Assembly: GCA_030615235.1 (NCBI GenBank)
Contig: JAUWZR010000001.1
Coordinates: 1 to 60,603, forward strand
Source of the DNA: Promethearchaeota archaeon
Lineage (GTDB): Archaea > Asgardarchaeota > Lokiarchaeia > Sigyniarchaeales > SOKP01
DNA length: 60,603 bases
Reading direction: 5' to 3'
Shown: in pieces, positions 38,214 to 58,365 of the stretch
Layout: every line of letters starts with the position of its first letter
Numbering within the stretch: the stretch's first letter is position 1
Notes under the pieces: model-generated
Told to the model about the DNA's origin: nothing
Database searches by the model: none
The model's input: the letters and a program-made list of their open reading frames with translations, nothing else
Position numbers and translations under genes: made by a program

Positions 38214-39722
38214 ATGGAACATAATAAATTATCTTTAGAATATGATAGAAATTTAATCAATAGCATCCTAAATAATAAAAATACTAAATACACGATTCTC
38301 TATTTATACATAATTAGAAAAGACTTATTTAACAATTTAGATGAGTATCTAATACATCAATATGAAAGAGCGATAATCTTGGATGACATTTACAAGAATG
38401 ATGTTGAATTACTTTGGGATCAAGAATTTATTGAAAAAGTGATAGACTTCAGGTTATTTAAGAATATTAGAAGTTATAGAGAATATGATCAAAAAGAAGG
38501 TAATTTTATTATAAAAATGGGAGAATATACAATAACTATTGAAAAAAACACAATATTAACCCCAAAAGAAACACTTTTCCGTATAATTACAAAGAGATTT
38601 AAATCACTAAATCGGAGAGATTTTGAATTAGGTCTTACTAAGCTAAAAGAAGTAAGATGTGAGGTGAGTGGGATGGTACATCACTTTATATATGAAGTCG
38701 GAGATGATGACTATGTATTGTCTGATGATTTTTATGATATTCTAGATCAATTTGGTAATATTTACCAAGCTATTAAAATTGAGCCTACTTCTGATGGATT
38801 ACTTGAAATATGCAAAGAAATTAAAAAGAAAATTTATAATATTGTTATGATTTTCGATCCAATCTTGAATAATAAAAGTGTTATTAAGAAACTTAACAAA
38901 GCTTTAGATATCAATAAAAAAGAAGACGAACTCGAAATTACAGAAATCGCTATTATGCTTAAAATGTTAGAGAAGGATATTATCCTTTCAATATCAAATA
39001 TAGATTTCCAAATATTATGTAATTATCAAGATGAAATGGAGAGAATCAATAAACAATTAATGAAGATTAAATCCAATTATACTGGAAATCAGGATTATCT
39101 TAAATTTCTTGAAAATATTCCATTAGAAATTAAGGAAATTCAAGAAACTTTGATAAAAATAAGAGATAATGCATCAGGAGCAAAAAGAGCAGTATCAGAA
39201 TTAGAAAATAGAATAAAATCTAGAGTTTCTGGTGAATTTGATATTTTACGTGAGAAGAAGGAAATTTTTTATCAAGAAATTGAAATTGACTCTTCAATTG
39301 ACTCATTACTTCAAGCTTGTAAAGAAATTAAAGATAAGACTGTTAATATTATCCGAATTTTTACTCCAATTTTGAATAATGAAGTTATTATTGGAAAAAT
39401 TAAAAAAACATTAGAAAAAAATGAAGATTTTGTTAACCTTAAAGAAAAAAAAACACTTGAGATAGCAGAAATATCTCTTAATCTAAGAGTAATACACAAA
39501 AATATTAGATTATCATTATCAAATACAGATTTTCAAATATTAACAAACTATAAAGATGAATTGGAAACATTATATAAAAAATTAAATGATATTGAGTCAG
39601 GTGCAACAGAAGATAAAATTTCTCAAGAGAATTTAAATGAAATGAGAGAAAATATTATAGGAGCAAGAAAATCGGTTTTAGATATAGAAAATAGAATGAT
39701 TATAATAAAAAATAACAAATGA
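38214..39722 (+). CDS. Island gene 1: coiled-coil protein with an internal ~170-aa tandem duplication
   Basis: Unit 1 has LLEICKEIKKKIYNIVMIFDPILNN ... SNIDFQILCNYQDEMERINKQL ... GAKRAVSELENRI. Unit 2 has LLQACKEIKDKTVNIIRIFTPILNN ... SNTDFQILTNYKDELETLYKKL ... GARKSVLDIENRM. Confidence 0.6.
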   Translation: MEHNKLSLEYDRNLINSILNNKNTKYTILYLYIIRKDLFNNLDEYLIHQYERAIILDDIYKNDVELLWDQEFIEKVIDFRLFKNIRSYREYDQKEGNFIIKMGEYTITIEKNTILTPKETLFRIITKRFKSLNRRDFELGLTKLKEVRCEVSGMVHHFIYEVGDDDYVLSDDFYDILDQFGNIYQAIKIEPTSDGLLEICKEIKKKIYNIVMIFDPILNNKSVIKKLNKALDINKKEDELEITEIAIMLKMLEKDIILSISNIDFQILCNYQDEMERINKQLMKIKSNYTGNQDYLKFLENIPLEIKEIQETLIKIRDNASGAKRAVSELENRIKSRVSGEFDILREKKEIFYQEIEIDSSIDSLLQACKEIKDKTVNIIRIFTPILNNEVIIGKIKKTLEKNEDFVNLKEKKTLEIAEISLNLRVIHKNIRLSLSNTDFQILTNYKDELETLYKKLNDIESGATEDKISQENLNEMRENIIGARKSVLDIENRMIIIKNNK

Positions 39723-39733
39723 AAATGATTTAA

Positions 39734-40699
39734 ATGGAATGTCCATCTTGTAAGGTTGAAATGGAACCATTGGTTGTAGGAATTTTTCAATGTCCTCAAT
39801 GTAGAAAAATAATTAAAGAAAAAGATAAAGAAGCTGATACTTCGGCGGAATTAAAAATAGAGGAAGGAGATTTTCAAGATGGGGAATATTTTCATAAAAA
39901 AGTTAGCATAAATAAGAAATATGAAGTATGTGAGAAAGGGATTACTATAAGTAAAACAGAAAGTCGTCTACTTGCAGCATTGATTTGTCATAGTTCTTAT
40001 TTGAAAGAGGAGAAATATGTTAGATTGTCATGGTGGAAAAATTCACAGCATGCAGGTATGTTTAAAATTTATGATAAAGATGTACTTAATAATATTATTA
40101 TAGTTTTGGAAGAATTTGAGGAATCCTTCGATGATTTTTGGACTTGGAATGGAAAATATGGAAAGCAAGAACCAAAAACAGAAAAAGAATTAGAAAAAGA
40201 AAAAACTTTAGAAATTATCAAATATAGAATTCTTGAAAATAAAACATGTCCAAAATGTTCAAAGAAAATGGATAAAAAGAAATCCTATTATGAGTGTCGA
40301 CACTGTGGAGAAATAGTTATCTTAGAAGGATATAATCAACCCATTTTCAATATTATGACAGCAGATCTCGATTTACGCTTTCATGGAAATTTTCCAATAA
40401 ATTTCTACTTACCAGTAAGTGGTATAACTGTAAAATGGTTGATGGGTGAATGGAAAGCATTAGTAGTTATCTATTCAAAAGACAATCCAAATAAAAAATG
40501 GTTAAGATTTTACTGGTGGGCACGAGATCTAAGTACCTTTTTAAAAAATGGACAAAGAGAAATGGGAGAAGGGACTCAAATGGGTTGGAAAGCTCAAAGA
40601 GGAATGTCTTCCCCAAATATTTATGATAAAAAGCTTGTTAGACCTCTAATTAACGCTTTAAAAAAAATATCAATTGAATTAAAATGGGAAAATAAATAA
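39734..40699 (+). CDS. Island gene 2: protein with two modules, each a zinc ribbon plus a WW-containing segment
   Basis: Module 1 is CPSC-x14-CPQC then YVRLSWWKN. Module 2 is CPKC-x12-CRHC then WLRFYWWAR. Confidence 0.55.
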   Translation: MECPSCKVEMEPLVVGIFQCPQCRKIIKEKDKEADTSAELKIEEGDFQDGEYFHKKVSINKKYEVCEKGITISKTESRLLAALICHSSYLKEEKYVRLSWWKNSQHAGMFKIYDKDVLNNIIIVLEEFEESFDDFWTWNGKYGKQEPKTEKELEKEKTLEIIKYRILENKTCPKCSKKMDKKKSYYECRHCGEIVILEGYNQPIFNIMTADLDLRFHGNFPINFYLPVSGITVKWLMGEWKALVVIYSKDNPNKKWLRFYWWARDLSTFLKNGQREMGEGTQMGWKAQRGMSSPNIYDKKLVRPLINALKKISIELKWENK

Positions 40700-40715: not shown

Positions 40716-41969
40716 ATGTCAATTCTAGAATCTAAATGGGAAGGATTATTAGATGTCTTTTCTGAAGGATTAGAAAAAGCAATTGAAGAATTGAAGAATA
40801 AAGATGTTGAAAATATCCCTGGAGCTAAAGATGCCCTATTAGATAGACTAAATGTTCTAAAAATCCAATTTACTCGAAATAAAGGAGAGCTCTTCGAAAG
40901 AGTTATAGATAATTCTATTCAAAATGCCTTCTTTCCAAAAACTTCGAATTTTGCAGAAGCTTTTAGTAAAATCCTTAAATCTAGAACTCATGAGCAAGAT
41001 TACATCATCAACGAATTATTAAATGGATTTGTGACTTCAAAAGTTAAAGCTATTGCATCCTATAATCAAGGGCCAATAATCGATAGAATGGTTGAAGCGT
41101 TTGCTAAAAGAAGTGATTTTCATATAGTTGATCATCAATTTTTTGCTATGTTTGGAGATCCTAATAAACCGCGTAATTATGTGAAGAAACAACTTGAAGG
41201 GCTTGTCAATTTGTTTGGACTCGTATCCAAAGAACTCGTAATTAAAAAGGATGTTAGAAGTAGCGAAGAAAAAGTATACACTTTCTATACATTTCCTCCC
41301 GAAATATTAGCAATTTTAAAGGAGAAGTACATAATTATCGAAGAAAATGAAAATGAAGTAGAAAAAGGCGAATTAGAAGAGGAGGATAAGGAAATTGAAC
41401 TTGCAATTAGTGTGGATAAAAAAACTAATATAAATGCTTTAGTTTATGCGCATGTATCAGAAGCTTTTGATAGGAATGTGTTTATAAGCCTCTTTTTAGC
41501 AAATATTGCTGTAAATAGAAAAGACTCCGAAGAAATAGGTGGCTCATATACCATAAATGGTATCTCTGCTATTTTTGCTTTAATTCTTTTATTAAGTCTT
41601 TTACCTAAACTAAATGTACAAGCAACTAATCCAATTCTAAAAGATCCATCTTTTGATGATCAAAAAATGAGTATAATCCCTAAATCTTGGATGGTGAAGC
41701 AAGTATTAGAAGCGTTATTCGAGCCGTTAATAAAGATTGTTGCTTTTAGGTTAGGTGGAGGACTTTGGTTAAATCAAATAAAAGATACAGAAATTAATAA
41801 AAAAATTCATAATCAAATAAGATTTCTTTTAAAAGACGTTAATAAATGGATTTTAGGTAATTTATGTCGTGTTGAAATTCCAATTTTCGTAGAACTATCA
41901 AATATATATACAGAAGTTACATTAGATGTCGGTAGAAATGAGAAGTCATTAGAGGATGATGATGAGTAG
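40716..41969 (+). CDS. Island gene 3: hypothetical protein (417 aa)
   Basis: Operonic ORF with short gaps and an acidic C-terminus. No recognised motif. Confidence 0.5.
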   Translation: MSILESKWEGLLDVFSEGLEKAIEELKNKDVENIPGAKDALLDRLNVLKIQFTRNKGELFERVIDNSIQNAFFPKTSNFAEAFSKILKSRTHEQDYIINELLNGFVTSKVKAIASYNQGPIIDRMVEAFAKRSDFHIVDHQFFAMFGDPNKPRNYVKKQLEGLVNLFGLVSKELVIKKDVRSSEEKVYTFYTFPPEILAILKEKYIIIEENENEVEKGELEEEDKEIELAISVDKKTNINALVYAHVSEAFDRNVFISLFLANIAVNRKDSEEIGGSYTINGISAIFALILLLSLLPKLNVQATNPILKDPSFDDQKMSIIPKSWMVKQVLEALFEPLIKIVAFRLGGGLWLNQIKDTEINKKIHNQIRFLLKDVNKWILGNLCRVEIPIFVELSNIYTEVTLDVGRNEKSLEDDDE

Positions 41970-43251
41970 AAGAAGATTTACTGAAAGAGTTAGATCGGGA
42001 AGAAGCAGGGAAAAGTGGACGGATATTTTACCTAAATATCTGACACATATTAGTCATATGCAGCCAGTCCTTAAAGAAACGCGGAGGATCATAATTGAAT
42101 TAGATCCTATAATATTTTTAGAGCCTGAATTAGAAATATTAGATCAAATTAGGCAGGAAGAAGAAAAAAGAGGCAGACGTACTGTAAGAGCCTTATCTGA
42201 ATTTTCGGCTATGTATAGATCAAATATATATGAAATTATTATAAATTTTATCATAAATTTTAGAGGAAAAATCGAACCAATTGAATTAAAAGATTACATC
42301 ATAGATCATTTATATGAGGCTATTAAAGCATTGGATATCTTACAAAAAATCACTAATCCAGACCAACGGGATTTAGATAAAACATATCTTTACCTTTTAG
42401 TTAAGTTCATTGAAGAAATTATATTTCCAAAGGGTAATAATATAGAAAATAGATATGATAAATTGCTTTTAAATTCAAAAGATTACTATGAATGTCAAAG
42501 ACATTTATTACAAACTCATACGTTTTATCGAGAAAAGTTAAAAAATCCAGAAGGTTTCACTATTCCCGGTATTTCTCCTAAAGTTTATCAAATAATTAAT
42601 AATATAACTTCATTGTTTAATTTGGAACCTAACTACGGAGAATTTCCTGAAAGATCTGGCTACGAGATTCCTCTTCTTTTGAAAAATGATGTGTTTGAAC
42701 CATATATTGAATCAATTGCAAATGCTGAAGAAGAAGCAATTGAAAATATTGCTGAAAGAATAGGACTAAGAGTTTTGGATGGCATCTTTCTAGCCCCACA
42801 GGCAGCATTTGTAGAGATATTACTAAAGCATAATTTTTTAAGGGAAGAAACTCAAGAAGATGGGAAAATCCGTTATGTTCCTCAATTTAGTAACGAAACC
42901 TTAGTTTTGTATTATTCCGCGTTTGCATCTTTACGAAGGGGTTTTTTATCGAAAGAGCTCGTTAATTGGATAGCAATGAATTTCGCGCTAGTTATATATA
43001 TGGGAATTTTAAAATGGAAGTTGTCGGATGATAATATATTCTATGGAATCTTCAAAGATTTGCAGACCAGTGAAAAAATCTTGCCTTATTTAATGAAACT
43101 CTCTAGTTTCCCTAACTATTTAGGAATGGAAAAAATGAAAATCCGAGATAGTATTCAATATAGAAAGGAAATATTCAATTTTATCGGATCTCAAATTGAT
43201 AATTTAAAAGAATTAATTGATGAAGTATCAAAATATTGTGATCAAATTTAA
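41956..43251 (+). CDS. Island gene 4: hypothetical protein (431 aa)
   Basis: Overlaps gene 3 by 14 nt. No recognised motif. Confidence 0.5.
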   Translation: MMMSRRRFTERVRSGRSREKWTDILPKYLTHISHMQPVLKETRRIIIELDPIIFLEPELEILDQIRQEEEKRGRRTVRALSEFSAMYRSNIYEIIINFIINFRGKIEPIELKDYIIDHLYEAIKALDILQKITNPDQRDLDKTYLYLLVKFIEEIIFPKGNNIENRYDKLLLNSKDYYECQRHLLQTHTFYREKLKNPEGFTIPGISPKVYQIINNITSLFNLEPNYGEFPERSGYEIPLLLKNDVFEPYIESIANAEEEAIENIAERIGLRVLDGIFLAPQAAFVEILLKHNFLREETQEDGKIRYVPQFSNETLVLYYSAFASLRRGFLSKELVNWIAMNFALVIYMGILKWKLSDDNIFYGIFKDLQTSEKILPYLMKLSSFPNYLGMEKMKIRDSIQYRKEIFNFIGSQIDNLKELIDEVSKYCDQI

Positions 43252-43356: not shown

Positions 43357-44571
43357 GTGTATTTTGAACTGGATATAATTGAAGAAGTAGATGATATAGA
43401 AGGTAATGAAGACCAAAAAGAAAGGTTAGATGATTTTTTTAGAACATTGAATAATTATACAAAATTTGCAAATAAATTAAAAAAAACTAAATTATCACCT
43501 AATTTAACAATGCTCTTATATGGCCCTCCAGGCACAGGAAAAACATCATTAACAAGAGCTTATTCTCTAAAATATAATATTCCCATCTGTGTTGTAGAAT
43601 CTAATAGATTAGTCTCTTCTTTATTAGGTGATACAATTAAAAATATTCGAAGAGTGATTGAAATTGCTGCTGATATATCAAAAAAGAATGGTAATTTCAT
43701 TCTATTTTTTGATGAAATTGATGCGATTGGTTCCGAGAGATCTAATGTACATGAAGTCGGGGAAATTAAACGAGCAGTAATAGCTTTTTTGCAAACTATT
43801 GATTTAATTAGTTATAAAAGCCTCCCTTTAGCTATAATTGGGGCCACTAACCATCAGCAGCAACTAGATTCGGCAATATGGCGACGATTTACATTTCATC
43901 TTCAATTCGATTTTCCTAATTATGAAATTAGATCAAAAATAATAAAATCTTTTATAAAAAGAATAGAAGATGCTGGGATAGCAGTTAACGATTCTATTTC
44001 TGATGAAATCGATTTAGAATATAATAAAATTCGATTAATTATAGAAGGAATAGAAAATTCTGATGATAAATTAAATAATAATCTTATCATGAAGGAAGTT
44101 AAAAATCAGGAAATAAACGGATTAATTACATTAACTGATGGATATTCTGGATCTGATATTGAGAGAGGTGTAAGAGTTGCATTATTCAAAGCAATTGGCT
44201 CGTTTCCTACTGTTGAGAATATAGATTATGATATTCTTTATAAATCACTAAAGTTAGTTGGAGGAACAGCAGTTCATGTAAATCGACAGGAAATTCTCAG
44301 CCTCTCGGGTCCAAGTTTTGAAAAATTAGATGAATTTGATGATAAACTTGCTTTATCCGATTTTAATGTAGAATTTAAAAATTTTGAAGAATTGCTAGCA
44401 CAGTCACACAAATTAACACCAATATTAAAAGAAATTAATAATATCTTGGAACATCGGGAGGGTTTAAAAAATGATTATCATCAACGAATAAGTGAAGAAT
44501 TCGTAAACTTTATTACGACATTAAAAGATTTAAGCAAAATATTAAAAGATAAAAATATTGTAAAAGATTAA
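43357..44571 (+). CDS. Island gene 5: classic-clade AAA ATPase (Vps4/katanin/CDC48-module-like) with a C-terminal helical extension
   Basis: Walker A LLYGPPGTGKTSL, Walker B ILFFDEIDAIG, and a second region of homology GATNHQQQLDSAIWRRF. The frame is open upstream to an ATT at 43291, so the start is uncertain. Confidence 0.85.
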   Translation: MYFELDIIEEVDDIEGNEDQKERLDDFFRTLNNYTKFANKLKKTKLSPNLTMLLYGPPGTGKTSLTRAYSLKYNIPICVVESNRLVSSLLGDTIKNIRRVIEIAADISKKNGNFILFFDEIDAIGSERSNVHEVGEIKRAVIAFLQTIDLISYKSLPLAIIGATNHQQQLDSAIWRRFTFHLQFDFPNYEIRSKIIKSFIKRIEDAGIAVNDSISDEIDLEYNKIRLIIEGIENSDDKLNNNLIMKEVKNQEINGLITLTDGYSGSDIERGVRVALFKAIGSFPTVENIDYDILYKSLKLVGGTAVHVNRQEILSLSGPSFEKLDEFDDKLALSDFNVEFKNFEELLAQSHKLTPILKEINNILEHREGLKNDYHQRISEEFVNFITTLKDLSKILKDKNIVKD

Positions 44572-44591: not shown

Positions 44592-45044
44592 ATGTTTGAT
44601 TTAGATTATGATACAAAATACGTCTCTGTAGTTATTGAGTTTAAATATAACTCTAAGAGTAGTAAAAATATACCTAATGAAGTCAGAGAGGCTTTTATGG
44701 GGTTATATCCTCCTAAACACCCAAGTGGAAGAGGAAGTCCAATTTTAAGGGATATTAATAACTTATGCAATCCTAATGAAGAGGTTCTTTATCCGATTCA
44801 CTTTTCTTTAATTAAAAAGCCCGTTAAAATCGATTTGCCTGGAGTAAGAGAATATAAATTAAAAAATACAGCTGTGGGGGCAATAATTTTATATGAATAT
44901 ATAGGCCTTCTTGATGATTATAAAGATTGCTGCCTTAAAATAGCTGACTTTTTAGAGAAAAAAATTAAAAAACCTAAATGGTATTCAGAAATCACTTCAA
45001 TTAAACTAATTATAGGGTACGATTTAAAGGATGTCGCAAAATAA
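44592..45044 (+). CDS. Island gene 6: 150-aa protein, paralogue of 47206-47670
   Basis: Shares REAFMG, PPK.P.GRGSP, PIHFSLIKKP and NTAVGA.ILYEY.GL blocks with the 154-aa ORF on the other side of the Rad50-like gene. Confidence 0.6.
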   Translation: MFDLDYDTKYVSVVIEFKYNSKSSKNIPNEVREAFMGLYPPKHPSGRGSPILRDINNLCNPNEEVLYPIHFSLIKKPVKIDLPGVREYKLKNTAVGAIILYEYIGLLDDYKDCCLKIADFLEKKIKKPKWYSEITSIKLIIGYDLKDVAK

Positions 45045-51885: not shown

Positions 51886-52236
51886 TCACATCTCATTTTG
51901 TTCAAACAATTCAAAATATCCTTCAGAGTTTCTGATTAAATCTAGCACATCTAAAGTTGTTTTATTAAGGAATAACGAATCATTTTTTTCTGCTAAAAAC
52001 TTCGAAAATATCTCTAATGAATTTTCAAATTGGGAATAATTTTCAGAAATAAGATTTCTTAATAAAATCTGGCGCTCTAATAGAGAATATTGAGTTAATA
52101 TTTCCTTTATAAAAACATCAACATCGTCGAAATAAATTACATTACCAAATTTTAAATTAGCTAAAATATTTTTAATTTTCTCATAAATATGGCAATTTTC
52201 TTCTTTAAATTTTGAGAAAAAAGTATTATTGTTCAA
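51886..52236 (-). CDS. Hypothetical 116-aa protein, co-operonic with the nuclease-HerA gene
   Basis: Lies 6 nt upstream of the 779-aa gene on the same strand. No recognised motif. Confidence 0.45.
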   Translation of the reverse strand: MNNNTFFSKFKEENCHIYEKIKNILANLKFGNVIYFDDVDVFIKEILTQYSLLERQILLRNLISENYSQFENSLEIFSKFLAEKNDSLFLNKTTLDVLDLIRNSEGYFELFEQNEM

Positions 52237-52397: not shown

Positions 52398-53921
52398 ATG
52401 TCAGATTTAACAACCCAAAACAAAATTTTAACCGTTTTAAGTAAAGCGTATCTCCCGTTAACAGCTAGGGAAATTTCTCAAATTGCAGAACTAAACATCA
52501 ATACTACTAGAACTATTTTACCACAAATGGTTAATAGAGGAGAAATTGAGCCAATAAAAATGGGTCCTGGGACTAAAAACTTATATATGTATAAAAAAAT
52601 CGAGGATGAAGGAACTGTAGAAATCCTTGTTATAGGAAAATGGATGAAGAAGAATTTAGAAAGTTATGAAAAAAAAGAAATAGAGGAACCTATTGAAGAA
52701 CAATTAGAATTAAAAAATCATTTAAATTTCAATTTATTTCAGTGTGTTGGCCTCATAAATTTCTATGATCTCCGAAAAATTTGTGGAATTCATAGATATA
52801 CATCCCCAGATAAAATAAATGAAATAGGAATGGGTGTGCAAAGACAAAGGCATGACAAATGGGTCGAGGAATTGAAAGAGGGATTAAAATCTTCCAAAGC
52901 TGAAATGTGGTCTACGGCAATAATATATTTTGATAAAGAAAAAATAGAATACACTAAACTTCGGGATTATAATGGTCAAGAAATAGGAGTTATAATCATT
53001 AATTATGATGGTCATGTATATGATGCTGAAAAACCAGGTTGGATTTTAGACGGACAGCAGAGAATGTGGGCTTTAGAGAATATCGCAATTGCTTCAGAAG
53101 ATCCAGATTCTCTGAAATTGACAGGACCAGTAACTATTGCTATTGGGGAATTTTACTACAAAGATATAGGAACTAAGCTTAATTTTATCCGAAGAACTTT
53201 TTCACATGCAAATAAAACTCAAAATCTTCCTAAGAATTTCAGGAAGGATTTAATAGGCACATTAGATGATTACAGTCAAGAAACAATGACCAAGAAAGAT
53301 AAAAAAGACGCTTTAATATCCTCAATAATTAGGTACTTAAATACAGATTATGATAGTCCTTTTAAAGAAATAATTGATATGCAAAATCGAGGTTTACCAA
53401 GAATTCAAGGAGAATTGATATCATGGGGGGCTATGAACTATATAATCCAAGAAATTTTAGAATATGAAGCGTTTAATAAGGAAGATTTACCTATTCCTGA
53501 ATCAGATAATCGATATAAATTTAATTTAGAATTAATTAAAGATTACTTCAATGCGATAAAATATATTTATCCATCTGAATGGGGGCAAACAGTTCAAAAT
53601 TCAAGGCTTCGGAGTAGGCTAGTGCTTTCTAGCTTTTCTATGCTTATTGGAAAAATACTGCATATTTCAATTGCGTTATCATCTGATCGCGAAACAAGAT
53701 TTAAGGAGATTGTTAGAGAAAATCTAAAAATTTCAGAAGATGAAAGAGTAAGTTTTGATGTAAACAGCCCATTGATACTAAACTTAAAAAACAATCAAGC
53801 TGATATAAAAACTTTAACCGAAAATTTAATAAAGATTTATGCTCAAAATTCCCAATATAATCCTGAAGAATTGTTAATTGTAAAAATTTATGAAGAATGG
53901 AGAGAATTACTGGAATATTGA
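52398..53921 (+). CDS. ParB/DndB/DUF262-superfamily protein (DGQ[HQ]R motif) with an N-terminal winged helix
   Basis: GVQRQRHDKWVEEL followed by WILDGQQRMWAL matches the QR ... DGQ(H/Q)R arrangement of DndB/DpdB-like DGQHR and DUF262 domains. The N-terminus LPLTAREISQIAELNINTTRTIL is HTH-like. Confidence 0.65.
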   Translation: MSDLTTQNKILTVLSKAYLPLTAREISQIAELNINTTRTILPQMVNRGEIEPIKMGPGTKNLYMYKKIEDEGTVEILVIGKWMKKNLESYEKKEIEEPIEEQLELKNHLNFNLFQCVGLINFYDLRKICGIHRYTSPDKINEIGMGVQRQRHDKWVEELKEGLKSSKAEMWSTAIIYFDKEKIEYTKLRDYNGQEIGVIIINYDGHVYDAEKPGWILDGQQRMWALENIAIASEDPDSLKLTGPVTIAIGEFYYKDIGTKLNFIRRTFSHANKTQNLPKNFRKDLIGTLDDYSQETMTKKDKKDALISSIIRYLNTDYDSPFKEIIDMQNRGLPRIQGELISWGAMNYIIQEILEYEAFNKEDLPIPESDNRYKFNLELIKDYFNAIKYIYPSEWGQTVQNSRLRSRLVLSSFSMLIGKILHISIALSSDRETRFKEIVRENLKISEDERVSFDVNSPLILNLKNNQADIKTLTENLIKIYAQNSQYNPEELLIVKIYEEWRELLEY

Positions 53922-54005: not shown

Positions 54006-55379
54006 ATGAAAAAGGATTTTGAATTGAAAGAAAAGACAGCTATAAATTTTCTTAAAAAGTACAATAAAAATGCTTATGTCTGTTTTTCAGGGGGTAAAGA
54101 TAGTCTAGTCGCCCTTGATTTAGCCATTAAAGGCGGAATTGATAATGTTGTATTTTGCGATACTACTATGGAATTTCAAGAAACTCTTGATTACATTAGA
54201 AGAGTAGAAGAATTTTATGATATAAGGGTGGAATCAGTGACTGCCCCTGTGCCATTTTTTGAACTTGTATATAAAATTGGGGTCCCATCGAGAAGATTGA
54301 GATGGTGTTGCAAGGTTTATAAATTTTCTCCACTCGCGGTATTCGCAAGAGAGAACAAGGTTAAATCTTATATAACAGGCTTAAGAAGTGAAGAGAATGT
54401 TAGACGTAAGCATTATAGCAAAAATGATGAGAATCATTTAATAGATTCAAAACAAATAAATCCTATTCTTGATTGGTCAAGTCAAGATATTTGGGATTAT
54501 ATTATGCGAAATAATCTACCTGTTAATCCACTGTACAATTTAGGATTTAAAAGAATAGGGTGTTGGCCATGCCCATTTAAATCTAAGGTAGATTGGAGTT
54601 TGATTAAGAAGTTCTTCCCAGATAAATCAAAATTACTAGATAAAACCTTGAGATCTATCTTAAAGAATTGCGAAGGTGTGGGAATTAAGAATTTAGATGA
54701 TTTCATAAAAAATTTTAAATGGACTGCTTATAGTAGGCCGCAAAACTCTGAATTACAAGGGAAAATAGAATTTATTGATGGTACATCTTTAATTCATTTA
54801 GAAAATACGAGCGATCTCAAAAAAGTAGAAAAAATTATTCCAATATTATCAAAAGAATATGAGGTAATTAGAAATTCGATTATGATAAAAAGCAAACTCC
54901 GCAAGCAAAGTCTCAAAATCCTCGTAGAAAAAGCTCTAAATTGTGTAGGTTGTGGTACATGCGTTGCTTTTTGTAAGTCTTTAAGAATAGAAAGAAACCA
55001 TTTAGTTGTTGATAGTCAAAATTGTACTTCATGTTTAAGATGTATTAAAACTAGTACAATGAGGGGAGCTTGTATAATGAGAAATTTTTCTCCATATCGT
55101 ATTGAAATTGGTACTTGCCAAAATTTTTCAGTAGAAAATGAAATTCCTTCATTAAATAGTCGTGTTGGCTTGATTAGAACAAGAGCTAAACTGGAAGATA
55201 TAATAGAAAAATTAGAAAAACATGCTGAAATTAAAAAATTCACTCAATATGTCTCCATAAAAAACGGAAAATTGTCAGCAACAGCATATAAGTCAAGAGG
55301 GTATGTGGAAATTAAAATTTACCCTAACAATAATGACTTAGAAATTACAATGAATTATTTCAGAGGGATAATCACTTAA
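54006..55379 (+). CDS. PAPS-reductase-family PP-loop ATP pyrophosphatase (DndC-like) with a C-terminal 2x[4Fe-4S] ferredoxin-like domain
   Basis: PP-loop VCFSGGKDSLVALDL, RWCCKVYKFSPL and GCWPCP blocks of the PAPS reductase/DndC family. CVGCGTCVAFC and CTSCLRC Cys clusters follow. Confidence 0.75.
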   Translation: MKKDFELKEKTAINFLKKYNKNAYVCFSGGKDSLVALDLAIKGGIDNVVFCDTTMEFQETLDYIRRVEEFYDIRVESVTAPVPFFELVYKIGVPSRRLRWCCKVYKFSPLAVFARENKVKSYITGLRSEENVRRKHYSKNDENHLIDSKQINPILDWSSQDIWDYIMRNNLPVNPLYNLGFKRIGCWPCPFKSKVDWSLIKKFFPDKSKLLDKTLRSILKNCEGVGIKNLDDFIKNFKWTAYSRPQNSELQGKIEFIDGTSLIHLENTSDLKKVEKIIPILSKEYEVIRNSIMIKSKLRKQSLKILVEKALNCVGCGTCVAFCKSLRIERNHLVVDSQNCTSCLRCIKTSTMRGACIMRNFSPYRIEIGTCQNFSVENEIPSLNSRVGLIRTRAKLEDIIEKLEKHAEIKKFTQYVSIKNGKLSATAYKSRGYVEIKIYPNNNDLEITMNYFRGIIT

Positions 55380-55449: not shown

Positions 55450-56343
55450 ATGACAAAATATGATTTATTCAACTTGGAAAAAATCCAAGAATTAACTAGC
55501 CCGATTGAAGAATTTGAAGGAAAAATAGTCAATTTTGGGATTAACTTTGAAAGATTTCGCAAAACTAGAAATAAAACTCTCCATAAGATAAAAGATCAAT
55601 TATTTATAGAAGAAATTGAACAAATCTTTCTTGAATTTGACACACTCTATAAGCAATTATCTAAACAATCAATTAATATTATTTTAAAATTTCTCTTTTT
55701 TCAAGAAAAACTTACGAAAGAACATGCAATTTTATTCAAACAAAAATTAAAAGATTCTAATTTAAGATTAAACGAATACGGATTACATTTAATTGAAACT
55801 AAAAAAATCCGTAGAATTCATGATAACACCTTAGTGATCTTTGCCCCATCTTTAGATCTATGGTTAGAAGTATTAAACTCATTAAAGAGAAATTCTCTAT
55901 ATTTATCTTTTATAGAGAAGGCTAAGATTATTTTAAAAACTAAGGAATATATACCTATTGAAGAAATTTCTACTCAAAATGAACAAACAATAGAAAAAGA
56001 ATCTAAATCTGAACTTAATAAATATGAAGAATATCTTAAATATACGAATAAGGAATTTCAAAAAAGGAGACGGAGAGAAAAAAGAACTAATTTAGTAAAA
56101 CTTCAAGAAAAACCAGCTATCCAAATTGAGGTAACTAAGGAGGTAACAGAGAAAATTGAAGAATATAAATCTAAAATGAAAACTGACTTCAATAGGAAAT
56201 ATTTTATTCAAAAAGATGAAGAAAAAGATCCAGTATCGTTAATAAAAGATTTAAAAAAAAAAAAAAAGGAAGAATACAAAATACATTTAGAGAAAATACA
56301 GAAAAAGAAATCAGGTGAAAATTCAGATACTAGAACGAATTAA
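55450..56343 (+). CDS. Hypothetical protein with a Lys/Glu-rich C-terminal half
   Basis: 297-aa ORF that overlaps the next gene by 29 nt. Confidence 0.45.
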   Translation: MTKYDLFNLEKIQELTSPIEEFEGKIVNFGINFERFRKTRNKTLHKIKDQLFIEEIEQIFLEFDTLYKQLSKQSINIILKFLFFQEKLTKEHAILFKQKLKDSNLRLNEYGLHLIETKKIRRIHDNTLVIFAPSLDLWLEVLNSLKRNSLYLSFIEKAKIILKTKEYIPIEEISTQNEQTIEKESKSELNKYEEYLKYTNKEFQKRRRREKRTNLVKLQEKPAIQIEVTKEVTEKIEEYKSKMKTDFNRKYFIQKDEEKDPVSLIKDLKKKKKEEYKIHLEKIQKKKSGENSDTRTN

Positions 56344-57847
56344 TATAGCAGATAATGAAATTGATATAAAAAATCAATTTACACTTATACTAGGTAAATT
56401 TAAAAAAGAACAAATAAATCAGTTTCAAGAATTTAATACATATGATTTATTTGAGGATTTTAATGTTATATCTTTTGAGACAATTTTAACTATATTTAAA
56501 AATGAAATACATAATGTAAACTTTCTAAGATTTGTTGAAATTCTTGATCCTTTTCTTAACACTACCAAATTTTTTATTCAATTAATAGGAAAATACAGTG
56601 AATTAACTCAATTTTTTGATCAATCTTTACGACTTAGGATATTTGCAAGTGAAAATGAGAATTTAGAAAAACTCTTAGAAATTCGGAAGAAAATAGATGA
56701 AAAAAACACACCAAAAGTAAAAGAAATTTTAGATGAAATCAGAGATTTAAATAATTTGATTATCGAAGAAATAAAAACATTAAATTATTTAGAAGAGGAT
56801 TTTATTAACCAAAAAATGAAAATTGATCGATTTAACAAATCAATAAACAATCTTCAGATAAAATTAAAGAATTTAGACACACAAAAAAAAAAGGCGCTTA
56901 AAAAAATTAGTGTAATAACAGGAGAAAATGAAGATTCAAGAGATATGGATGAGGAATTAACAGATTCTCAAAGGATTTTAAAATTTCAACAACAAGTTAG
57001 AGATTTTAATTATGAAATGAAGAAAATTAATGAGAATATTCATAAAGAGAGTACCGAATTTCGAGAGTTTAAGCTCAATTTTTTGATAATCGAAGAAGAT
57101 TATAAACTTCTCAAAAGCACAATAAATGGTTATAATAACAAATTAAATGAACTTAAAAAAGAATTATCTAAAATTATTGATACAGAATTAGGTGATTTTG
57201 AAATGTCCGATCTCCTCAAATCACATAATCAAATTATTAAACATTTCGAAGAAAATGACCTTAAAATAAAAAATATTCAAAAACATAAATTTTTTGACAA
57301 AAACCAATCCGATGCTCTATCAACTATATATAAAGAATTAGTTAATATCAAGTCTAATCTAACTAAAAATAAAATTAATTTTACTAAAGATGATATAGAA
57401 AAATCTGTAGATTTTTATCAAAATATTGAATCTAAAATTATAATATTAGAAGAAATAATCAATAAATTTTTAATGCAAATCTATTTGAAATATTCCCTCG
57501 AAATTACAATAAATGATAATAAGAATTTATTTATTAAACAAAAATTCTTCCAAATAAGAAAAAAAACCACTCTAAACTTCAATGAATTGACAACTCCAGA
57601 AAAAATTTTTTTCTTAATTGTCTTAGATATTTCATTGAGAATTTTATTTAATAAAAAAATAATTTATTCGAATATGTTTTTACCAGTAATCTATAATAAA
57701 CAAGGTTCAATATTTCGAACTTTAAAAAAAATTATTCCAGTGTTCGAAAGGGAAACTGAACTTCAAGACATTAGTTTGATCTTTATTTTATCTAATATAG
57801 AAATGAAAGAAAGAATAACGAATTTAGATGTTATCAAAATCAAATAA
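56315..57847 (+). CDS. SMC/Rad50-like coiled-coil protein with degenerate ATPase motifs
   Basis: The N-terminus KIQILERINIADNEIDIKNQFTLILGKFKKEQ has the strand pattern of an SMC head, but GKFKKE replaces GxxGxGKS/T. A long coiled coil follows. The C-terminal LTTPEKIFFLIVLDISL sits in place of LSGGE. Confidence 0.45.
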   Translation: MKIQILERINIADNEIDIKNQFTLILGKFKKEQINQFQEFNTYDLFEDFNVISFETILTIFKNEIHNVNFLRFVEILDPFLNTTKFFIQLIGKYSELTQFFDQSLRLRIFASENENLEKLLEIRKKIDEKNTPKVKEILDEIRDLNNLIIEEIKTLNYLEEDFINQKMKIDRFNKSINNLQIKLKNLDTQKKKALKKISVITGENEDSRDMDEELTDSQRILKFQQQVRDFNYEMKKINENIHKESTEFREFKLNFLIIEEDYKLLKSTINGYNNKLNELKKELSKIIDTELGDFEMSDLLKSHNQIIKHFEENDLKIKNIQKHKFFDKNQSDALSTIYKELVNIKSNLTKNKINFTKDDIEKSVDFYQNIESKIIILEEIINKFLMQIYLKYSLEITINDNKNLFIKQKFFQIRKKTTLNFNELTTPEKIFFLIVLDISLRILFNKKIIYSNMFLPVIYNKQGSIFRTLKKIIPVFERETELQDISLIFILSNIEMKERITNLDVIKIK

Positions 57848-57882
57848 AGAAGTGAAGATATCTGAGTAAAAATCAAAAAGAA

Positions 57883-58365
57883 ATGATAAGAGAAATTGCA
57901 AAGCTAATTTTAACAAATAAAAAGAAAATGGTAAAAGAAGAAGATTTAATAAGACTCTATGATAAATCTACTTCGGATTTTGACGAAACTTTTAAAGATC
58001 TATATGAACAATTTAATAAACTAGGTTTTGAACTTATAAAGTCAGAATTTCAAGGGAATAATTATTATGTTTTAACATCAGAAGGTAAGGATGATAATAT
58101 AACTCCAAGCCAATATGGTAGTTTAGCACTTATTGCTGCATTATCTAAGGAAGTAAATGAGAACATAAAAATTGAGGATCTAAAAGAAATATTCAAAGAT
58201 CAATGGAATTTAGATATTAAATTTCTTATAGATAATGATTTTTTAAGGAAAATTGACGATTTGGGAATAGTTAAAATAACTCCAATCGGAAAAGCTATAT
58301 TAAAAGAAATTCTGCCTGATTTATCACTAGACACACTATTAGATATATTTGAAGTTGAAGAATAA
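57883..58365 (+). CDS. Hypothetical 160-aa protein, last gene of the island (possible winged-helix)
   Basis: Operonic with the preceding genes. It has a weak resemblance to small wHTH partners of SMC-like proteins, which is not enough for a call. Confidence 0.35.
   Translation: MIREIAKLILTNKKKMVKEEDLIRLYDKSTSDFDETFKDLYEQFNKLGFELIKSEFQGNNYYVLTSEGKDDNITPSQYGSLALIAALSKEVNENIKIEDLKEIFKDQWNLDIKFLIDNDFLRKIDDLGIVKITPIGKAILKEILPDLSLDTLLDIFEVEE

What the first reader, a model, noticed from the sequence alone, without database searches (positions are those of the whole stretch)
38214..58365. ~20-kb accessory island combining TGT/DpdA-like, DndB/DndC-like, Rad50-like, AAA and nuclease-HerA genes: candidate undescribed composite DNA-modification and restriction system
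About 20 genes in three tightly packed transcription units lie between the Elf1-like gene and the Sm-like/hypB genes. Unit A (38214-49404, + strand, gaps of 0-70 nt or overlaps) has two internally duplicated proteins, two unknowns, a classic AAA ATPase, a Rad50-like ATPase with a CxxC hook bracketed by two paralogous ~150-aa genes, and a DUF5591-like plus small TGT-like pair. Unit B (49540-52236, - strand) has a PD-(D/E)xK nuclease fused to a HerA-type ATPase plus a 116-aa partner. Unit C (52398-58365, + strand) has a DGQ(H/Q)R ParB/DndB-like protein, a DndC-like PAPS reductase with Fe-S clusters, an unknown, a degenerate SMC-like protein and a small protein, which echoes the dndB-C-D-E order. 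Each recognisable part belongs to a family used in known defence or DNA-modification systems (Dpd 7-deazaguanine, Dnd/Ssp phosphorothioation, HerA-nuclease systems, SMC-type sensors). The combination does not match any architecture I know. The island lines I tallied by hand are very AT-rich: 38221-38280 has 9 of 60 G+C and 46261-46320 has 17 of 60, against 30 of 60 for 5401-5460 in rpoB. No integrase, transposase or flanking tRNA is present.
Basis: partly seen in the sequence, partly recalled or inferred. Interest (0 to 1): 0.85.

Follow-up and report, generated by a model that had tools for sequence, protein, structure and literature searches.

The report
Variable DNA-modification/restriction locus in Lokiarchaeia
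A 20-kb block of 18 genes in an Asgard (Loki-type) archaeon looks like a fixed, fast-evolving locus for marking and cutting DNA. A constant core of SMC-like and sulfur-transfer genes sits beside gene sets that differ between related strains, one of which probably puts 7-deazaguanine into DNA; none of this has been tested in the lab.

Summary
One conserved 44-aa gene (45031-45165) was missed.

The block is not an inserted mobile island. In 8 related Lokiarchaeial assemblies it sits between the same Elf1-like and Lsm/HypB genes.

Where the contigs reach, the frame is always present:
- g1-g4 and the AAA+ g5;
- g6, the 44-aa ORF and a Zn-hook ABC ATPase (ASRP);
- a BrxP/SspD-like PAPS reductase;
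- g15-g17.

Three cassettes come and go:
- DUF5591 + TGT (4/8);
- RecB-like-nuclease-HerA + g12 + DGQHR (5/8);
- C5-methylase + HhH-GPD glycosylase + Smr (2 assemblies).

More distant Asgard contigs shuffle the same families, with DGQHR-[AAA]-g6-micro-ASRP contiguous in 11 loci. They add PglZ and NurA/HerA.

Elsewhere in archaea this TGT lies in an operon, DUF5591-TGT-X-large ATPase-NurA-HerA, which I could not find described.

My reading is a modular modification-restriction system related to type 4 BREX/Ssp/Dnd and Dpd, but a member of none. No chemistry has been shown.

The parts
37354..37884 (-). Left flank: Elf1-like Zn-ribbon gene. This is a boundary marker, not part of the system.
   Evidence: Pfam Zn_ribbon_Elf1 2e-9. 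It is 70-73% identical and in the same position in L047, L049, L050 and L051. Extra diverged copies (38-43%) lie inside the island in L002, L021 and L050.
38214..39722 (+). g1: 502-aa helical protein with an internal tandem duplication. Frame component, function unknown.
   Evidence: No Pfam, PADLOC or NCBIfam hit. Repeat 174-334 against 342-495 is 43% identical, E 6e-38. Orthologs are present wherever the contig reaches this position.
39734..40699 (+). g2: 321-aa protein made of two repeats, each a Zn ribbon plus a domain of about 120 aa. Frame component.
   Evidence: Weak Zn_ribbon_6 hit (1e-4). Halves are 27% identical, E 4e-5. Orthologs are 59-84% identical.
40716..41969 (+). g3: 417-aa unknown. 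Frame component.
   Evidence: No family hit. Orthologs are 58-86% identical.
41956..43251 (+). g4: 431-aa unknown. Overlaps g3 by 14 nt. Among the better-conserved unknown frame genes.
   Evidence: No family hit. It is 69-76% identical in all variants.
43357..44571 (+). g5: classical AAA+ ATPase (IetA/CdvC-like clade) with a C-terminal extension of about 200 aa. Frame component.
   Evidence: Pfam AAA 8.7e-28. PADLOC IetA 3.3e-60. NCBIfam IteA 181.7 bits, below its cut-off of 510. Walker A GPPGTGKT at 56. A shorter AAA of about 260 aa sits between DGQHR and the g6-like gene in type II loci.
44592..45044 (+). g6: 150-aa partner of the ABC ATPase. New family with a ferredoxin-like alpha+beta fold.
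   Evidence: 78 clusters in 5.8e9 proteins, none with a Pfam domain. AF2 pLDDT 80. Best PDB matches are uS10 and dimeric ferredoxin-like proteins, TM 0.3-0.47. It always lies next to an ASRP.
45031..45165 (+). Micro-ORF, 44 aa, helical. Overlaps the g6 stop and the g7 start.
   Evidence: Translation MSQNKKIIEEIVDYIESSIRDGLDEAIFIKEFRNKIEKYLSEKQ. A homologous 44-49-aa ORF lies between the g6-like gene and the ASRP in 10 of 13 other loci checked, including deeply divergent ones. It is called as a gene in L018 and L047-L051.
45165..47174 (+). g7: Zn-hook coiled-coil ABC ATPase (archaea-specific SMC-related protein, Rad50-like) with intact motifs. Proposed DNA-scanning or loading motor.
   Evidence: NCBIfam ASRP 8.3e-54 over the full length, but 183 bits against a cut-off of 300. 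Rad50 C-terminal halves in the PDB. Walker A, CWVC hook and SGG.
47206..47670 (+). g8: paralog of g6. Optional: absent in L024, L049 and L051.
   Evidence: 46% identical to g6. Presence and absence.
47741..48343 (+). g9: stand-alone ArcS C1 domain (DUF5591, 'ArcS2'-like). Proposed to convert DNA-bound preQ0. Optional cassette together with g10.
   Evidence: Pfam DUF5591 44.6 bits against a cut-off of 26. Exact PC-X3-KPY-X2-S-X2-H motif. A phage ArcS2 plus DpdA2 gives dG+ in E. coli (PMC10516641). Absent at this locus in L047-L051.
48352..49404 (+). g10: TGT-superfamily transglycosylase of a distinct archaeal family (DpdA-like). Proposed to exchange guanine in DNA for a 7-deazaguanine.
   Evidence: Pfam TGT 35.4 bits against 26.3. 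It fails the TgtA cut-off (24 against 350) and the DpdA cut-off (15 against 200). Invariant D46, D87, D166, D215 and C270/C272/C275/H299. AF2 pLDDT 91 with a TGT fold. Elsewhere the family lies with NurA-HerA, or with p424 and sometimes QueC.
49540..51879 (-). g11: RecB/Cas4-type PD-(D/E)xK nuclease fused to a HerA/FtsK-type ATPase. Proposed restriction effector. Optional cassette together with g12 and g13.
   Evidence: PADLOC HerA 4.5e-17 and mad8 1.6e-16. About 24% identical to the HerA of the canonical TGT operon. Nuclease motifs are conserved down to orthologs at 27% identity. Absent in L047/L048, L050 and L051.
51886..52236 (-). g12: 116-aa partner of g11. Fast-evolving.
   Evidence: No family hit. 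It accompanies g11 in the A and B variants and in type I loci L027-L030. Identity to the window copy ranges from 37% to 90%.
52398..53921 (+). g13: N-terminal region (probably a winged helix) plus a DGQHR (ParB/Srx-superfamily) protein, closer to DpdB than to DndB. Motif is DGQQR.
   Evidence: TIGR03187 DGQHR 83.2 bits against 58.85. NCBIfam DpdB 82.8 against 300. PADLOC DpdB 7e-29. Pfam DndB 29.3 against 29.1. The winged helix is my reading of the sequence, plus a precomputed PF03965 domain on the homolog P0145. In 11 divergent loci it is directly followed by [AAA]-g6-like-micro-ASRP.
54006..55379 (+). g14: PAPS-reductase-family ATP pyrophosphatase with a CWPC pair, two CxxCxxC clusters and a C-terminal domain of about 100 aa (BrxP/SspD-like). 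Frame component. Proposed DNA-modifying enzyme, probably phosphorothioation.
   Evidence: Pfam PAPS_reduct 4.7e-40 and Fer4. PADLOC BrxP 2.4e-51, SspD 1.5e-20, DndC 1.8e-5. CysH/APS-reductase models score below their cut-offs. Cysteine positions. Adjacent to PglZ in related loci.
55450..56343 (+). g15: 297-aa protein with a K/E-rich tail. Frame component, fast-evolving.
   Evidence: No family hit. Orthologs are 34-79% identical.
56315..57847 (+). g16: 510-aa coiled-coil protein with a degenerate ABC/SMC-type head. Frame component.
   Evidence: N-terminus FTLILGKFKK with no GK[ST]. 64 clusters in 1.84e9 representatives, complete members about 480-545 aa. The 22 sequences I read keep LTTPEK and NKRGS motifs and none has GK[ST]. 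hhalign against the ASRP family is collinear but weak, probability 32%, E 5e-4.
57883..58365 (+). g17: 160-aa protein, possibly a tandem winged-helix 'kite' (MksE/ScpB-like). Frame component.
   Evidence: Pfam MksE 3.1e-3 (18.3 bits against 27). Two of 5 orthologs hit MksE, best 5.5e-4, and one hits MAGE at 0.12. The evidence is weak.
58389..58772 (-). Right flank: Sm-like (Lsm + Lsm_C) gene, followed by hypB. Boundary marker.
   Evidence: Pfam Lsm_C 8.6e-12. Same position and 79-92% identity in L018, L021, L024, L047, L048 and L050.

Best explanation
The block is a resident, fast-diversifying DNA-modification/restriction locus of one Lokiarchaeial clade. It has a constant frame and exchangeable cassettes.

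Frame:
- A Zn-hook ABC ATPase (g7) with two small partners, g6 and the 44-aa ORF.
- An AAA+ ATPase (g5) with four unknown proteins (g1-g4).
- A BrxP/SspD-like PAPS-reductase/Fe-S enzyme (g14).
- An inactivated SMC-like protein (g16) with g15 and g17.

Inferred mechanism:
1. The ABC ATPase complex loads on or scans DNA, as proposed for DndD/DndE, SspC and SMC-type sensors.
2. It positions g14, which marks self DNA, most likely by backbone phosphorothioation.
3. In this genome two cassettes are plugged in.
   a. g9+g10 add a second mark. g10 exchanges guanine in DNA for preQ0. g9 converts it to an amidine-type (archaeosine-like) or related base.
   b. g11-g13 supply the restriction arm. g13 is a DGQHR ParB-like NTPase, probably with a winged-helix DNA-binding domain. 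g11 is a hexameric HerA translocase fused to a RecB-type nuclease that degrades unmarked DNA.

Shown: gene content, motifs, folds of g6 and g10, synteny, cassette variability, and co-occurrence elsewhere.

Inferred: every biochemical step, the DNA (rather than tRNA) target, and the defensive role.
For: 1. Fixed locus, variable content. The same flanks (rSAM-p210-p145-Elf1 on one side, Lsm-HypB-rhomboid on the other) enclose four architectures.
   - A: window, L002, L018, L024.
   - B: L049, without g8-g10.
   - C: L047/L048 and L050. g9-g13 are replaced by a g6-like gene, HhH-GPD glycosylase, C5 methylase and Smr.
   - D: L051, with a frameshifted ASRP, a DGQHR remnant, and a second PAPS/g6x2/micro/ASRP set.

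2. Shuffled co-occurrence outside the clade.
   - 11 divergent Asgard contigs carry DGQHR-[AAA]-g6-like-micro-ASRP contiguously.
   - All six of the longer loci also have a PAPS reductase next to a PglZ protein.
   - Nuclease-HerA+g12 (or a HerA-like gene + NurA) and, once, DUF5591-TGT are in the same cluster.

3. Family assignments point to DNA marking and cutting: BrxP 2.4e-51, DpdB 7e-29, HerA 4.5e-17, TGT, and DUF5591 with an intact catalytic motif.

4. The g10 family is repeatedly in the operon DUF5591-TGT-X-large ATPase-NurA-HerA. That operon lies beside McrBC-like, TIR, SIR2, GIY-YIG and methylase genes. QueC is adjacent to the TGT in Freyarchaeota and Bathyarchaeia.

5. Rates are uneven within one genome pair. 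Against L048, g15 and g16 are 34% identical and g7 39%, while g4 is 69%, HypB 73% and Lsm 79%. L051 carries pseudogene remnants. Both fit a conflict locus.

6. Published precedent.
   - ABC-ATPase cores recruit alternative modification enzymes, including cytosine methylases instead of PT (PMC10853773).
   - BrxP-type PAPS reductases carry an extra Fe-S-like region, and type 4 BREX is treated as PT-dependent (PMC12839542).
   - DpdA needs the ATPase DpdB.
   - ArcS2 plus DpdA2 yields dG+.
Against: - There is no experimental datum for any component.
- Eight of the 18 genes (g1-g4, g12, g15, g17 and the micro-ORF) have no assignable function.
- No cysteine desulfurase, preQ0-synthesis gene, PglZ, BrxC, BrxL, DndE or DpdC is in the window.
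- g10 cannot be told from a tRNA enzyme by fold alone. tRNA TGTs are its best PDB matches.
- The frame is conserved and vertically inherited, which would also fit a housekeeping chromatin role.
- The TGT pair and the DGQHR/HerA cassette occur without each other (L049 and the canonical operons). A DpdA/DpdB-like partnership is therefore not obligatory.
- The contigs are metagenomic, so the counts are of assemblies, not of strains.
Confidence: 0.55

Rival explanations
1. Defence-island hotspot. Several independent systems merely sit side by side at a recombination-prone site, without working together. They would be an ASRP module, a BrxP-like module, a TGT/ArcS2 module and a nuclease-HerA/DGQHR module.
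For: - The cassettes are separable. L049 lacks the TGT pair. L047/L048, L050 and L051 lack nuclease-HerA and intact DGQHR.
- The TGT pair has its own independent operon elsewhere.
- Thaumarchaeal copies have no HerA within 10 kb.
Against: - DGQHR, the g6-like gene, the micro-ORF and ASRP are contiguous, with short gaps, in 11 unrelated contigs.
- A PAPS reductase lies within about 5 kb in all six of the longer loci.
- The frame genes on both sides of the cassettes (g1-g7 and g14-g17) are retained together in all 8 same-locus assemblies, as far as the contigs reach.
- Tight spacing and overlaps suggest co-transcription.
Confidence: 0.25
2. Housekeeping reading. The frame is a lineage-specific chromosome-organisation machine: an ASRP/ClsN-like SMC relative plus a kleisin/kite-like g15-g17. 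g9/g10 make tRNA archaeosine, and g14 serves sulfur assimilation.
For: - The position is conserved and inheritance is vertical, with identities like the flanks.
- ASRPs include the chromosome-compacting ClsN (PMC9389158).
- g10's best structural matches are tRNA TGTs.
- g14 has sub-threshold hits to CysH/APS reductase models.
Against: - g9/g10 are missing at the same locus in 4 of 8 relatives.
- They score far below the TgtA cut-off (24 against 350) and the ArcS cut-off (37 against 440). g9 is a 200-aa stand-alone C1 domain, so it has no C2 or PUA domain.
- g14's best match is BrxP, and its relatives abut PglZ.
- The cassettes are a nuclease-HerA or a C5 methylase with mismatch-type glycosylase and Smr, which are restriction-modification-type content.
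- g7, g15 and g16 diverge much faster than the flanks.
Confidence: 0.1
3. All three units form one obligatory system, in which unit C (g13-g17) is a DndB-C-D-E equivalent performing phosphorothioation.
For: A DGQHR protein followed by a PAPS-reductase-family protein and then an SMC-like protein resembles the dndB-C-D order.
Against: - No GK[ST] P-loop in g16 or in any of the 22 family members read, so it cannot be the DndD ATPase.
- g17 shows weak MksE-type winged-helix signals, not RHH.
- g14 scores 21.5 bits on the DndC equivalog, whose cut-off is 290.
- DGQHR is absent in variants C and D while g14-g17 remain.
- In other loci DGQHR pairs with g6/ASRP, not with g16.
Confidence: 0.05

Closest known systems
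Type 4 BREX / Ssp phosphorothioation systems (BrxP or SspD PAPS reductase with PglZ, BrxC, BrxL; SspABCD)
   Same: g14's best match is BrxP (2.4e-51), then SspD (1.5e-20). It has the extra Cys-rich Fe-S-type region reported for BrxP (PMC12839542). In related Asgard loci the orthologous gene lies next to a PglZ protein.
   Different: The window has no PglZ, BrxC/SspC, BrxL, DUF4007/SspB or cysteine desulfurase. The ATPase partner is a Zn-hook ABC protein rather than an ORC/Cdc6-type BrxC.
Dnd system and the DndD/CxC-ABC-ATPase + DndE core (PMC10853773)
   Same: - A ParB-superfamily DGQHR protein, a PAPS-reductase-family enzyme, and a coiled-coil ABC ATPase of about 650 aa with a Zn hook and a small cognate partner.
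- A small extra protein next to the ATPase.
- A HerA-containing nuclease arm, as in DndH.
- A cytosine methylase substituting in some variants.
   Different: - The partner g6 has a ferredoxin-like fold, not two RHH domains.
- g7 is not recognised by the DndD or PbeC models and matches ASRP instead.
- The DndC equivalog is far below its cut-off.
- There is no DndA, DndF or DndG.
Bacterial Dpd system (DpdA, DpdB, DpdC, DpdD-K)
   Same: A TGT-superfamily protein and a DGQHR protein that matches the DpdB models (7e-29) lie in one locus. DpdA with the ATPase DpdB inserts preQ0 into DNA (PMC10164549).
   Different: - Both proteins fall far below the NCBIfam equivalog cut-offs.
- There is no DpdC or DpdD-K.
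- The two genes are not adjacent and occur without each other in relatives.
- An ArcS-type domain is present instead of DpdC.
Viral DpdA2 + ArcS2 pair (Vibrio phage nt-1, Sulfolobus virus STSV2; PMC10516641)
   Same: A stand-alone DUF5591/C1 domain with the PC-X3-KPY-X2-S-X2-H motif sits next to a small TGT-like protein. The phage pair gives dPreQ0 and then dG+ in E. coli. Phage TGT/DpdA-like proteins, a Sulfolobales rod-shaped virus protein and a Vibrio phage nt-1 protein are among the best BFVD structural matches.
   Different: - It is chromosomal and cellular, not viral. Only one partial hit was found in 2.9 million viral contigs.
- It is linked to nuclease/HerA genes, which implies self-marking for restriction rather than evasion of restriction.
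HerA-NurA and 'HerA/FtsK capture' systems, including the BREX-related capture (BRC) system with PglZ, HerA and TGT (PMC12839542)
   Same: A HerA/FtsK-type ATPase is coupled to a nuclease and, in relatives, to PglZ and TGT.
   Different: - Here the nuclease is a fused RecB-type domain, not NurA.
- There is no DUF6079/BrxC, STAND, DUF4007 or GNAT.
- BRC was reported to lack DpdB homologs, whereas this locus has a DGQHR protein, a PAPS reductase and an ASRP.
Archaea-specific SMC-related proteins (ClsN/coalescin, Sph1/2; PMC9389158)
   Same: g7 aligns over the full length of the ASRP model and has the Zn hook and Walker motifs.
   Different: - Its score is below the curated cut-off (183 against 300).
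- It is embedded with DGQHR, PAPS-reductase and nuclease genes.
- It has dedicated partners (g6 and the 44-aa ORF). The ASRP paper found no consistent flanking genes.

Membership tests
Dpd (7-deazaguanine R-M) | DpdA: DNA-specific TGT paralog at equivalog level | tested here: not met
   NCBIfam DpdA 15 bits against a cut-off of 200, and PADLOC DpdA E 0.004 over 40 residues. TGT superfamily membership itself is met: Pfam 35.4 against 26.3, and the AF2/Foldseek TGT barrel.
Dpd (7-deazaguanine R-M) | DpdB: DGQHR ParB-like ATPase | tested here: inconclusive
   The DGQHR domain model is met (83.2 against 58.85). The DpdB equivalog is not (82.8 against 300). PADLOC DpdB gives 7e-29.
Dpd (7-deazaguanine R-M) | DpdC (DUF328) and the DpdD-K helicase/nuclease set | tested here: not met
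   No such Pfam, PADLOC or NCBIfam hit on any island product.
Viral-type ArcS2 + DpdA pair | Stand-alone ArcS C1 domain with the PC-X3-KPY-X2-S-X2-H motif, adjacent to a TGT-like gene | tested here: met
   DUF5591 scores 44.6 against 26. The motif PCAAIKPYYNSPIH starts at residue 51. g9 is only 200 aa. The gap to g10 is 8 nt.
tRNA archaeosine pathway (TgtA / ArcS) | Equivalog-level TgtA and ArcS with C2/PUA RNA-binding domains, present throughout the lineage | tested here: not met
   TgtA 24.2 against 350 and ArcS 36.7 against 440. g9 is a 200-aa stand-alone C1 domain. The pair is absent at the same locus in L047-L051.
Dnd phosphorothioation | DndC sulfurtransferase (equivalog) | tested here: not met
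   TIGR03183 21.5 bits against 290.4, and PADLOC DndC 1.8e-5 over about 80 residues only.
Dnd phosphorothioation | DndD/CxC ABC ATPase with a cognate DndE (two RHH domains) | tested here: not met
   g7 has no DndD or PbeC hit at E<0.01. The g6 model is a ferredoxin-like alpha+beta fold with no RHH. A profile of the g6 family finds nothing in PDB sequences.
Dnd phosphorothioation | DndB regulator | tested here: inconclusive
   Pfam DndB 29.3 bits against a cut-off of 29.1, and the DpdB models score higher.
Type 4 BREX | BrxP PAPS reductase | tested here: inconclusive
   PADLOC BrxP 2.4e-51, but it covers only profile positions 133-365 of 779. No DUF4007 part was found.
Type 4 BREX | PglZ, BrxC/PglY and BrxL in the same locus | tested here: not met
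   None is in the window. hhalign of g1-g4 and g15-g17 against the PglZ-like cluster c3 is negative. PglZ is present only in related loci: L029, L032, L035, L038, L039, L041 and L045.
Ssp system | SspD together with SspA, SspB and SspC | tested here: not met
   SspD-like at 1.5e-20, but no SspA, SspB or SspC hit.
ASRP (archaea-specific SMC-related proteins) | Full-length match, Walker A/B, signature motif and Zn hook | tested here: inconclusive
   The motifs and a full-length alignment are present. The score is 183 bits against a curated cut-off of 300.
HerA-NurA | HerA hexameric ATPase paired with a NurA nuclease | tested here: not met
   A HerA-type P-loop is present (PADLOC 4.5e-17). The nuclease is a fused RecB-type PD-(D/E)xK domain, not NurA.
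Ietos (IetA-IetS) | IetA ATPase with the IetS protease | tested here: not met
   PADLOC IetA 3.3e-60, but NCBIfam IteA scores 181.7 against 510, and no protease gene is in the locus.
Condensin-like MksBEF / Wadjet | Active SMC (MksB/JetC), kleisin, kite (MksE) and JetD nuclease | tested here: not met
   g16 has no P-loop. g17's MksE hit is below the cut-off (18.3 against 27). There are no JetA or JetD hits.

The most novel reading that the evidence does not exclude
Lokiarchaeia, and other archaea that carry the DUF5591-TGT-...-NurA-HerA operon (including cultivable Methanothermobacter), mark their own chromosomal DNA with a 7-deazaguanine. This could be an archaeosine-type base made by a stand-alone ArcS domain. 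In Lokiarchaeia this is one plug-in of a previously undescribed surveillance machine: an ASRP with g6 and a 44-aa subunit, an inactive SMC-like trio, and an AAA+ module. That machine can alternatively host phosphorothioation, deazaguanine or 5-methylcytosine chemistry, and hands unmarked DNA to a nuclease-HerA motor.
Probability: 0.3. Interest if true: 0.85.

Novelty: new variant of a known kind. Interest (0 to 1): 0.64.

Why it matters
- 7-Deazaguanines in DNA have so far been documented in bacteria (the Dpd system) and in viruses. To my knowledge they have not been reported in the genomic DNA of an archaeal cell.
- If the reading holds, Asgard archaea have their own modular way of marking and policing DNA.
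- The locus gives a natural experiment. Close relatives differ only in which modification or restriction cassette is present, so the role of each part can be tested.
- It assigns a testable context to ASRP-type SMC relatives and to several protein families with no known function.
- The wider TGT operon occurs in Methanothermobacter, a genus with cultivated members. The chemistry could be checked there directly.

Tried and rejected
1. g6/g8 as DndE. Rejected: there is no Pfam or PADLOC hit, no PDB sequence hit with a family profile, and the AF2 model is ferredoxin-like, not RHH.

2. g15+g16+g17 (967 aa in all) as a split version of the roughly 950-aa PglZ-like protein that abuts the PAPS reductase in related loci. 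Rejected by hhalign, probability below 1%. g1-g4 were also unrelated to any conserved cluster of the related loci.

3. A radical-SAM gene 4 kb upstream (33040-34080) as the ArcS partner RaSEA. NCBIfam returned only generic radical-SAM matches, with MoaA the best and below its cut-off.

4. Viral origin. One partial TGT hit and no g6-family hit in 2.9 million viral contigs.

5. Using fold to decide a DNA or tRNA target for g10. Not decisive: tRNA TGTs and viral TGT/DpdA-like proteins match about equally well, TM 0.5-0.7.

6. Structure prediction of g16 with orthologs taken from fetched loci.

7. Finding a published description. Six literature searches found no description. They covered DpdA, HerA, NurA, transglycosylase, DUF5591, DGQHR, PAPS reductase and the archaeal lineages. 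Krishnan et al. 2020 on ABC ATPases could not be read. The relation between ASRP and their 'CxC clade' therefore remains unchecked.

8. The organism's name. The window is a whole 60,603-bp NCBI contig, but no accession was returned. The closest named relative is Promethearchaeota archaeon Loki_b32.

Full report
**Source and observation**

The window is a complete 60,603-bp contig. It comes from an Asgard archaeon close to Promethearchaeota archaeon Loki_b32, whose island proteins are mostly 68-91% identical.

The stated interval holds 17 ORFs of at least 100 aa in three strand blocks. I add an 18th, a 44-aa ORF at 45031-45165. It overlaps the end of g6 and the start of g7. It recurs between the homologous genes in 10 of 13 other loci.

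- g1 and g2 are internally duplicated.
- g5 is a classical AAA+ ATPase.
- g7 is a Rad50-like ABC ATPase with a central CWVC hook. Paralogous 150-aa genes flank it.
- g9 is DUF5591 and carries the exact ArcS catalytic motif.
- g10 is TGT.
- g11 has RecB-type nuclease motifs fused to a HerA-type ATPase.
- g13 is a DGQ(Q)R protein.
- g14 is a PAPS reductase with two Fe-S-type Cys clusters.
- g16 is a P-loop-less coiled-coil protein.

The hand-counted G+C values are exact. The compositional dip is small: 27.7% against 31.9%. No integrase, transposase or nearby tRNA was found.

**Is it an inserted island?**

No. Contigs from relatives were found through three anchors: the TGT, the DGQHR protein and the g6 family. 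They show the same neighbours on both sides. On the left are a radical-SAM gene, a 210-aa and a 145-aa gene, and Elf1. On the right are Lsm, HypB and a rhomboid-like gene.

Identities of the flanks to the window (57-82%) are in the same range as many island genes. The block has therefore been inherited with its surroundings.

**What varies is the content**

- Variant A is the full set. It occurs in the window, L002, L018 and L024.
- Variant B (L049) goes from g7 straight to g11 and lacks g8-g10.
- Variant C (L047/L048 and L050) lacks g9-g13. It has instead a further g6-like gene, an HhH-GPD glycosylase, a C5 DNA methylase and an Smr protein.
- Variant D (L051) has a frameshifted g7 and a 188-aa remnant of g13. 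It also has a second, divergent PAPS-reductase/double-g6/micro-ORF/ASRP set.

Across the eight assemblies the frame is always present where the contig reaches. The frame is g1-g5, g6 + micro-ORF + ASRP, the PAPS reductase and g15-g17. The TGT pair is present in 4, the nuclease-HerA/g12/DGQHR cassette in 5, and the methylase cassette in 2.

Divergence is very uneven within a genome pair. Against L048, g15 and g16 are 34% identical and g7 39%. g4 is 69%, HypB 73% and Lsm 79%.

**Do the parts belong together?**

A metagenome scan with a DGQHR alignment returned 26 loci. After iterative profile searches and clustering, eleven divergent contigs show one contiguous string. It runs DGQHR, then sometimes a short AAA+ ATPase, then a g6-like gene (single or fused double), the micro-ORF and the ASRP.

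In all six of the longer loci a g14-like PAPS reductase lies within about 5 kb. It sits next to a protein of about 950 aa that matches PglZ.

Other elements complete these clusters:
- nuclease-HerA with g12 (L027, L029; L035 carries the nuclease-HerA gene with a different neighbour);
- a HerA-like gene with a NurA gene (L038, L039, L041);
- in L041, DUF5591-TGT wedged between the PAPS reductase and the HerA-like gene.

That is the classical signature of functional linkage. The cassette losses at the home locus show that not every part is obligatory.

**The TGT pair**

The g10 family is a distinct archaeal branch of the TGT superfamily. About 190 clusters were found, in Asgard, Methanobacteria, Thaumarchaeota, Bathyarchaeia and others. 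Invariant residues include four Asp and a CxCxxC...H site.

It fails the curated cut-offs of both the tRNA enzyme TgtA and bacterial DpdA.

In five lineages, including Methanothermobacter, it lies in a conserved operon: DUF5591, TGT, a protein of about 262-293 aa, an ATPase of 1,100-1,600 aa, sometimes a small protein, NurA and HerA. McrBC-like, TIR, SIR2, GIY-YIG and methylase genes lie beside it. In Freyarchaeota the same genes, without DUF5591, precede TGT, a 424-aa protein, a nucleoside deoxyribosyltransferase and QueC. In Bathyarchaeia QueC is adjacent to the TGT. Thaumarchaeal copies have only the 424-aa partner.

PADLOC v2 has no model for this operon, and I found no paper on it.

The precedent for a DNA target is the viral ArcS2 + DpdA2 pair, which yields dG+ in E. 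coli (PMC10516641). Fold comparison could not separate DNA from tRNA specificity.

**The other parts**

- g14 is best matched by BrxP, then SspD, and only marginally by DndC. It has the Cys-rich Fe-S-type region described for BrxP and for a subset of SspD (PMC12839542). Assimilatory CysH/APS-reductase models score below their cut-offs.
- g7 aligns end to end with the ASRP model but below its cut-off.
- g6 founds a family of about 78 clusters with no known domain. Its model (pLDDT 80) is a ferredoxin-like alpha+beta fold. This excludes the attractive idea that g6/g7 are a DndE/DndD pair in the sense of PMC10853773, although the logic is alike.
- g16 belongs to a family of 64 clusters in 1.84 billion representatives; complete members are about 480-545 aa. 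Every member I read lacks the P-loop Ser/Thr but keeps LTTPEK and NKRGS motifs. A weak, collinear profile match to the ASRP family suggests an inactivated relative.
- g17 gives sub-threshold MksE signals.
- g1-g4, g12 and g15 remain unassigned.

**Most likely mechanism (inference)**

The ABC ATPase with g6 and the micro-ORF scans or loads on DNA. The AAA+ module and the inactive SMC-like trio may assist it. The complex positions the BrxP-like enzyme to mark self DNA, probably as phosphorothioate.

In this genome a second mark is added by g10, which inserts preQ0, and g9, which converts it. The DGQHR protein may act as a DpdB-like NTPase. The nuclease-HerA motor with g12 degrades DNA that lacks the mark.

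In variant C, 5-methylcytosine replaces these cassettes, with a companion glycosylase. This parallels the published observation that ABC-ATPase cores can recruit methylases instead of PT enzymes.

**Rivals**

- Mere juxtaposition in a hotspot.
- A housekeeping chromatin/tRNA/sulfur reading.

The evidence for and against each is set out in the rival explanations.

**Comparison and novelty**

The locus works like a modification-restriction system assembled from BREX-4/Ssp, Dnd, Dpd and HerA-nuclease parts. It fails the defining tests of each family (see the membership table). I rate it a new variant of a known kind.

The pieces with the most novelty are:
- the DGQHR/g6/micro-ORF/ASRP core;
- the cassette-swapping home locus;
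- the widespread archaeal TGT-NurA-HerA operon.

Everything functional is inferred and no chemistry has been shown.

Noticed in passing
window 45031-45165 (+): Conserved 44-aa helical micro-ORF overlapping the g6 stop and the g7 start. Homologs lie between the g6-like and ASRP genes in 10 of 13 other loci, including deeply divergent ones.
   Followed up: yes
window 35677-37323 (+): 548-aa ORF (GTG start) with no hit in Pfam, PADLOC or NCBIfam, lying between the 145-aa gene and Elf1. It is absent at that position in L049 and L051. In L050 (966-1127) only a 54-aa C-terminal remnant remains. It looks like a strain-specific gain or decay next to the locus.
   Followed up: partly
window 37354-37884 (-); L002 11611-12267; L021 7965-8555; L050 14762-15352: Besides the conserved flanking Elf1-like gene (70-73% identical in relatives), extra diverged Elf1-like Zn-ribbon copies (38-43%) lie inside the island at different places in three relatives. 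Their role is unexplained.
   Followed up: partly
L014 (Methanothermobacter AP018336) 9411-18456; also L011, L013, L017, L019, L016: Conserved archaeal operon DUF5591-TGT-(262-293 aa)-(1,100-1,600-aa ATPase)-[about 180 aa]-NurA-HerA, in defence-island-like surroundings. It is not in PADLOC v2 and I found it in no paper searched. A sub-branch pairs the TGT with a 424-aa protein and sometimes QueC.
   Followed up: partly
L002 13040-13795 (-): An ASRP-like fragment and an Elf1-like copy are inserted between the TGT and the nuclease-HerA gene in Loki_b32, suggesting a past rearrangement.
   Followed up: no
L051 10562-13145: ASRP split into 558 + 90 aa, followed by a 188-aa C-terminal remnant of the DGQHR gene. 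These are signs of gene decay and module replacement within the locus.
   Followed up: partly
window 28395-31524 (+): A run of four genes: a 269-aa unknown, a nucleotidyltransferase (weak MntA/HalB-like), a radical-SAM protein and a GNAT acetyltransferase. The first is the lowest-GC gene outside the island (27.4%). This may be another accessory module.
   Followed up: no
window 27060-27659 (-): 199-aa protein with sub-threshold Longin-like and winged-helix hits, the kind of eukaryote-like gene expected in Asgard genomes.
   Followed up: no
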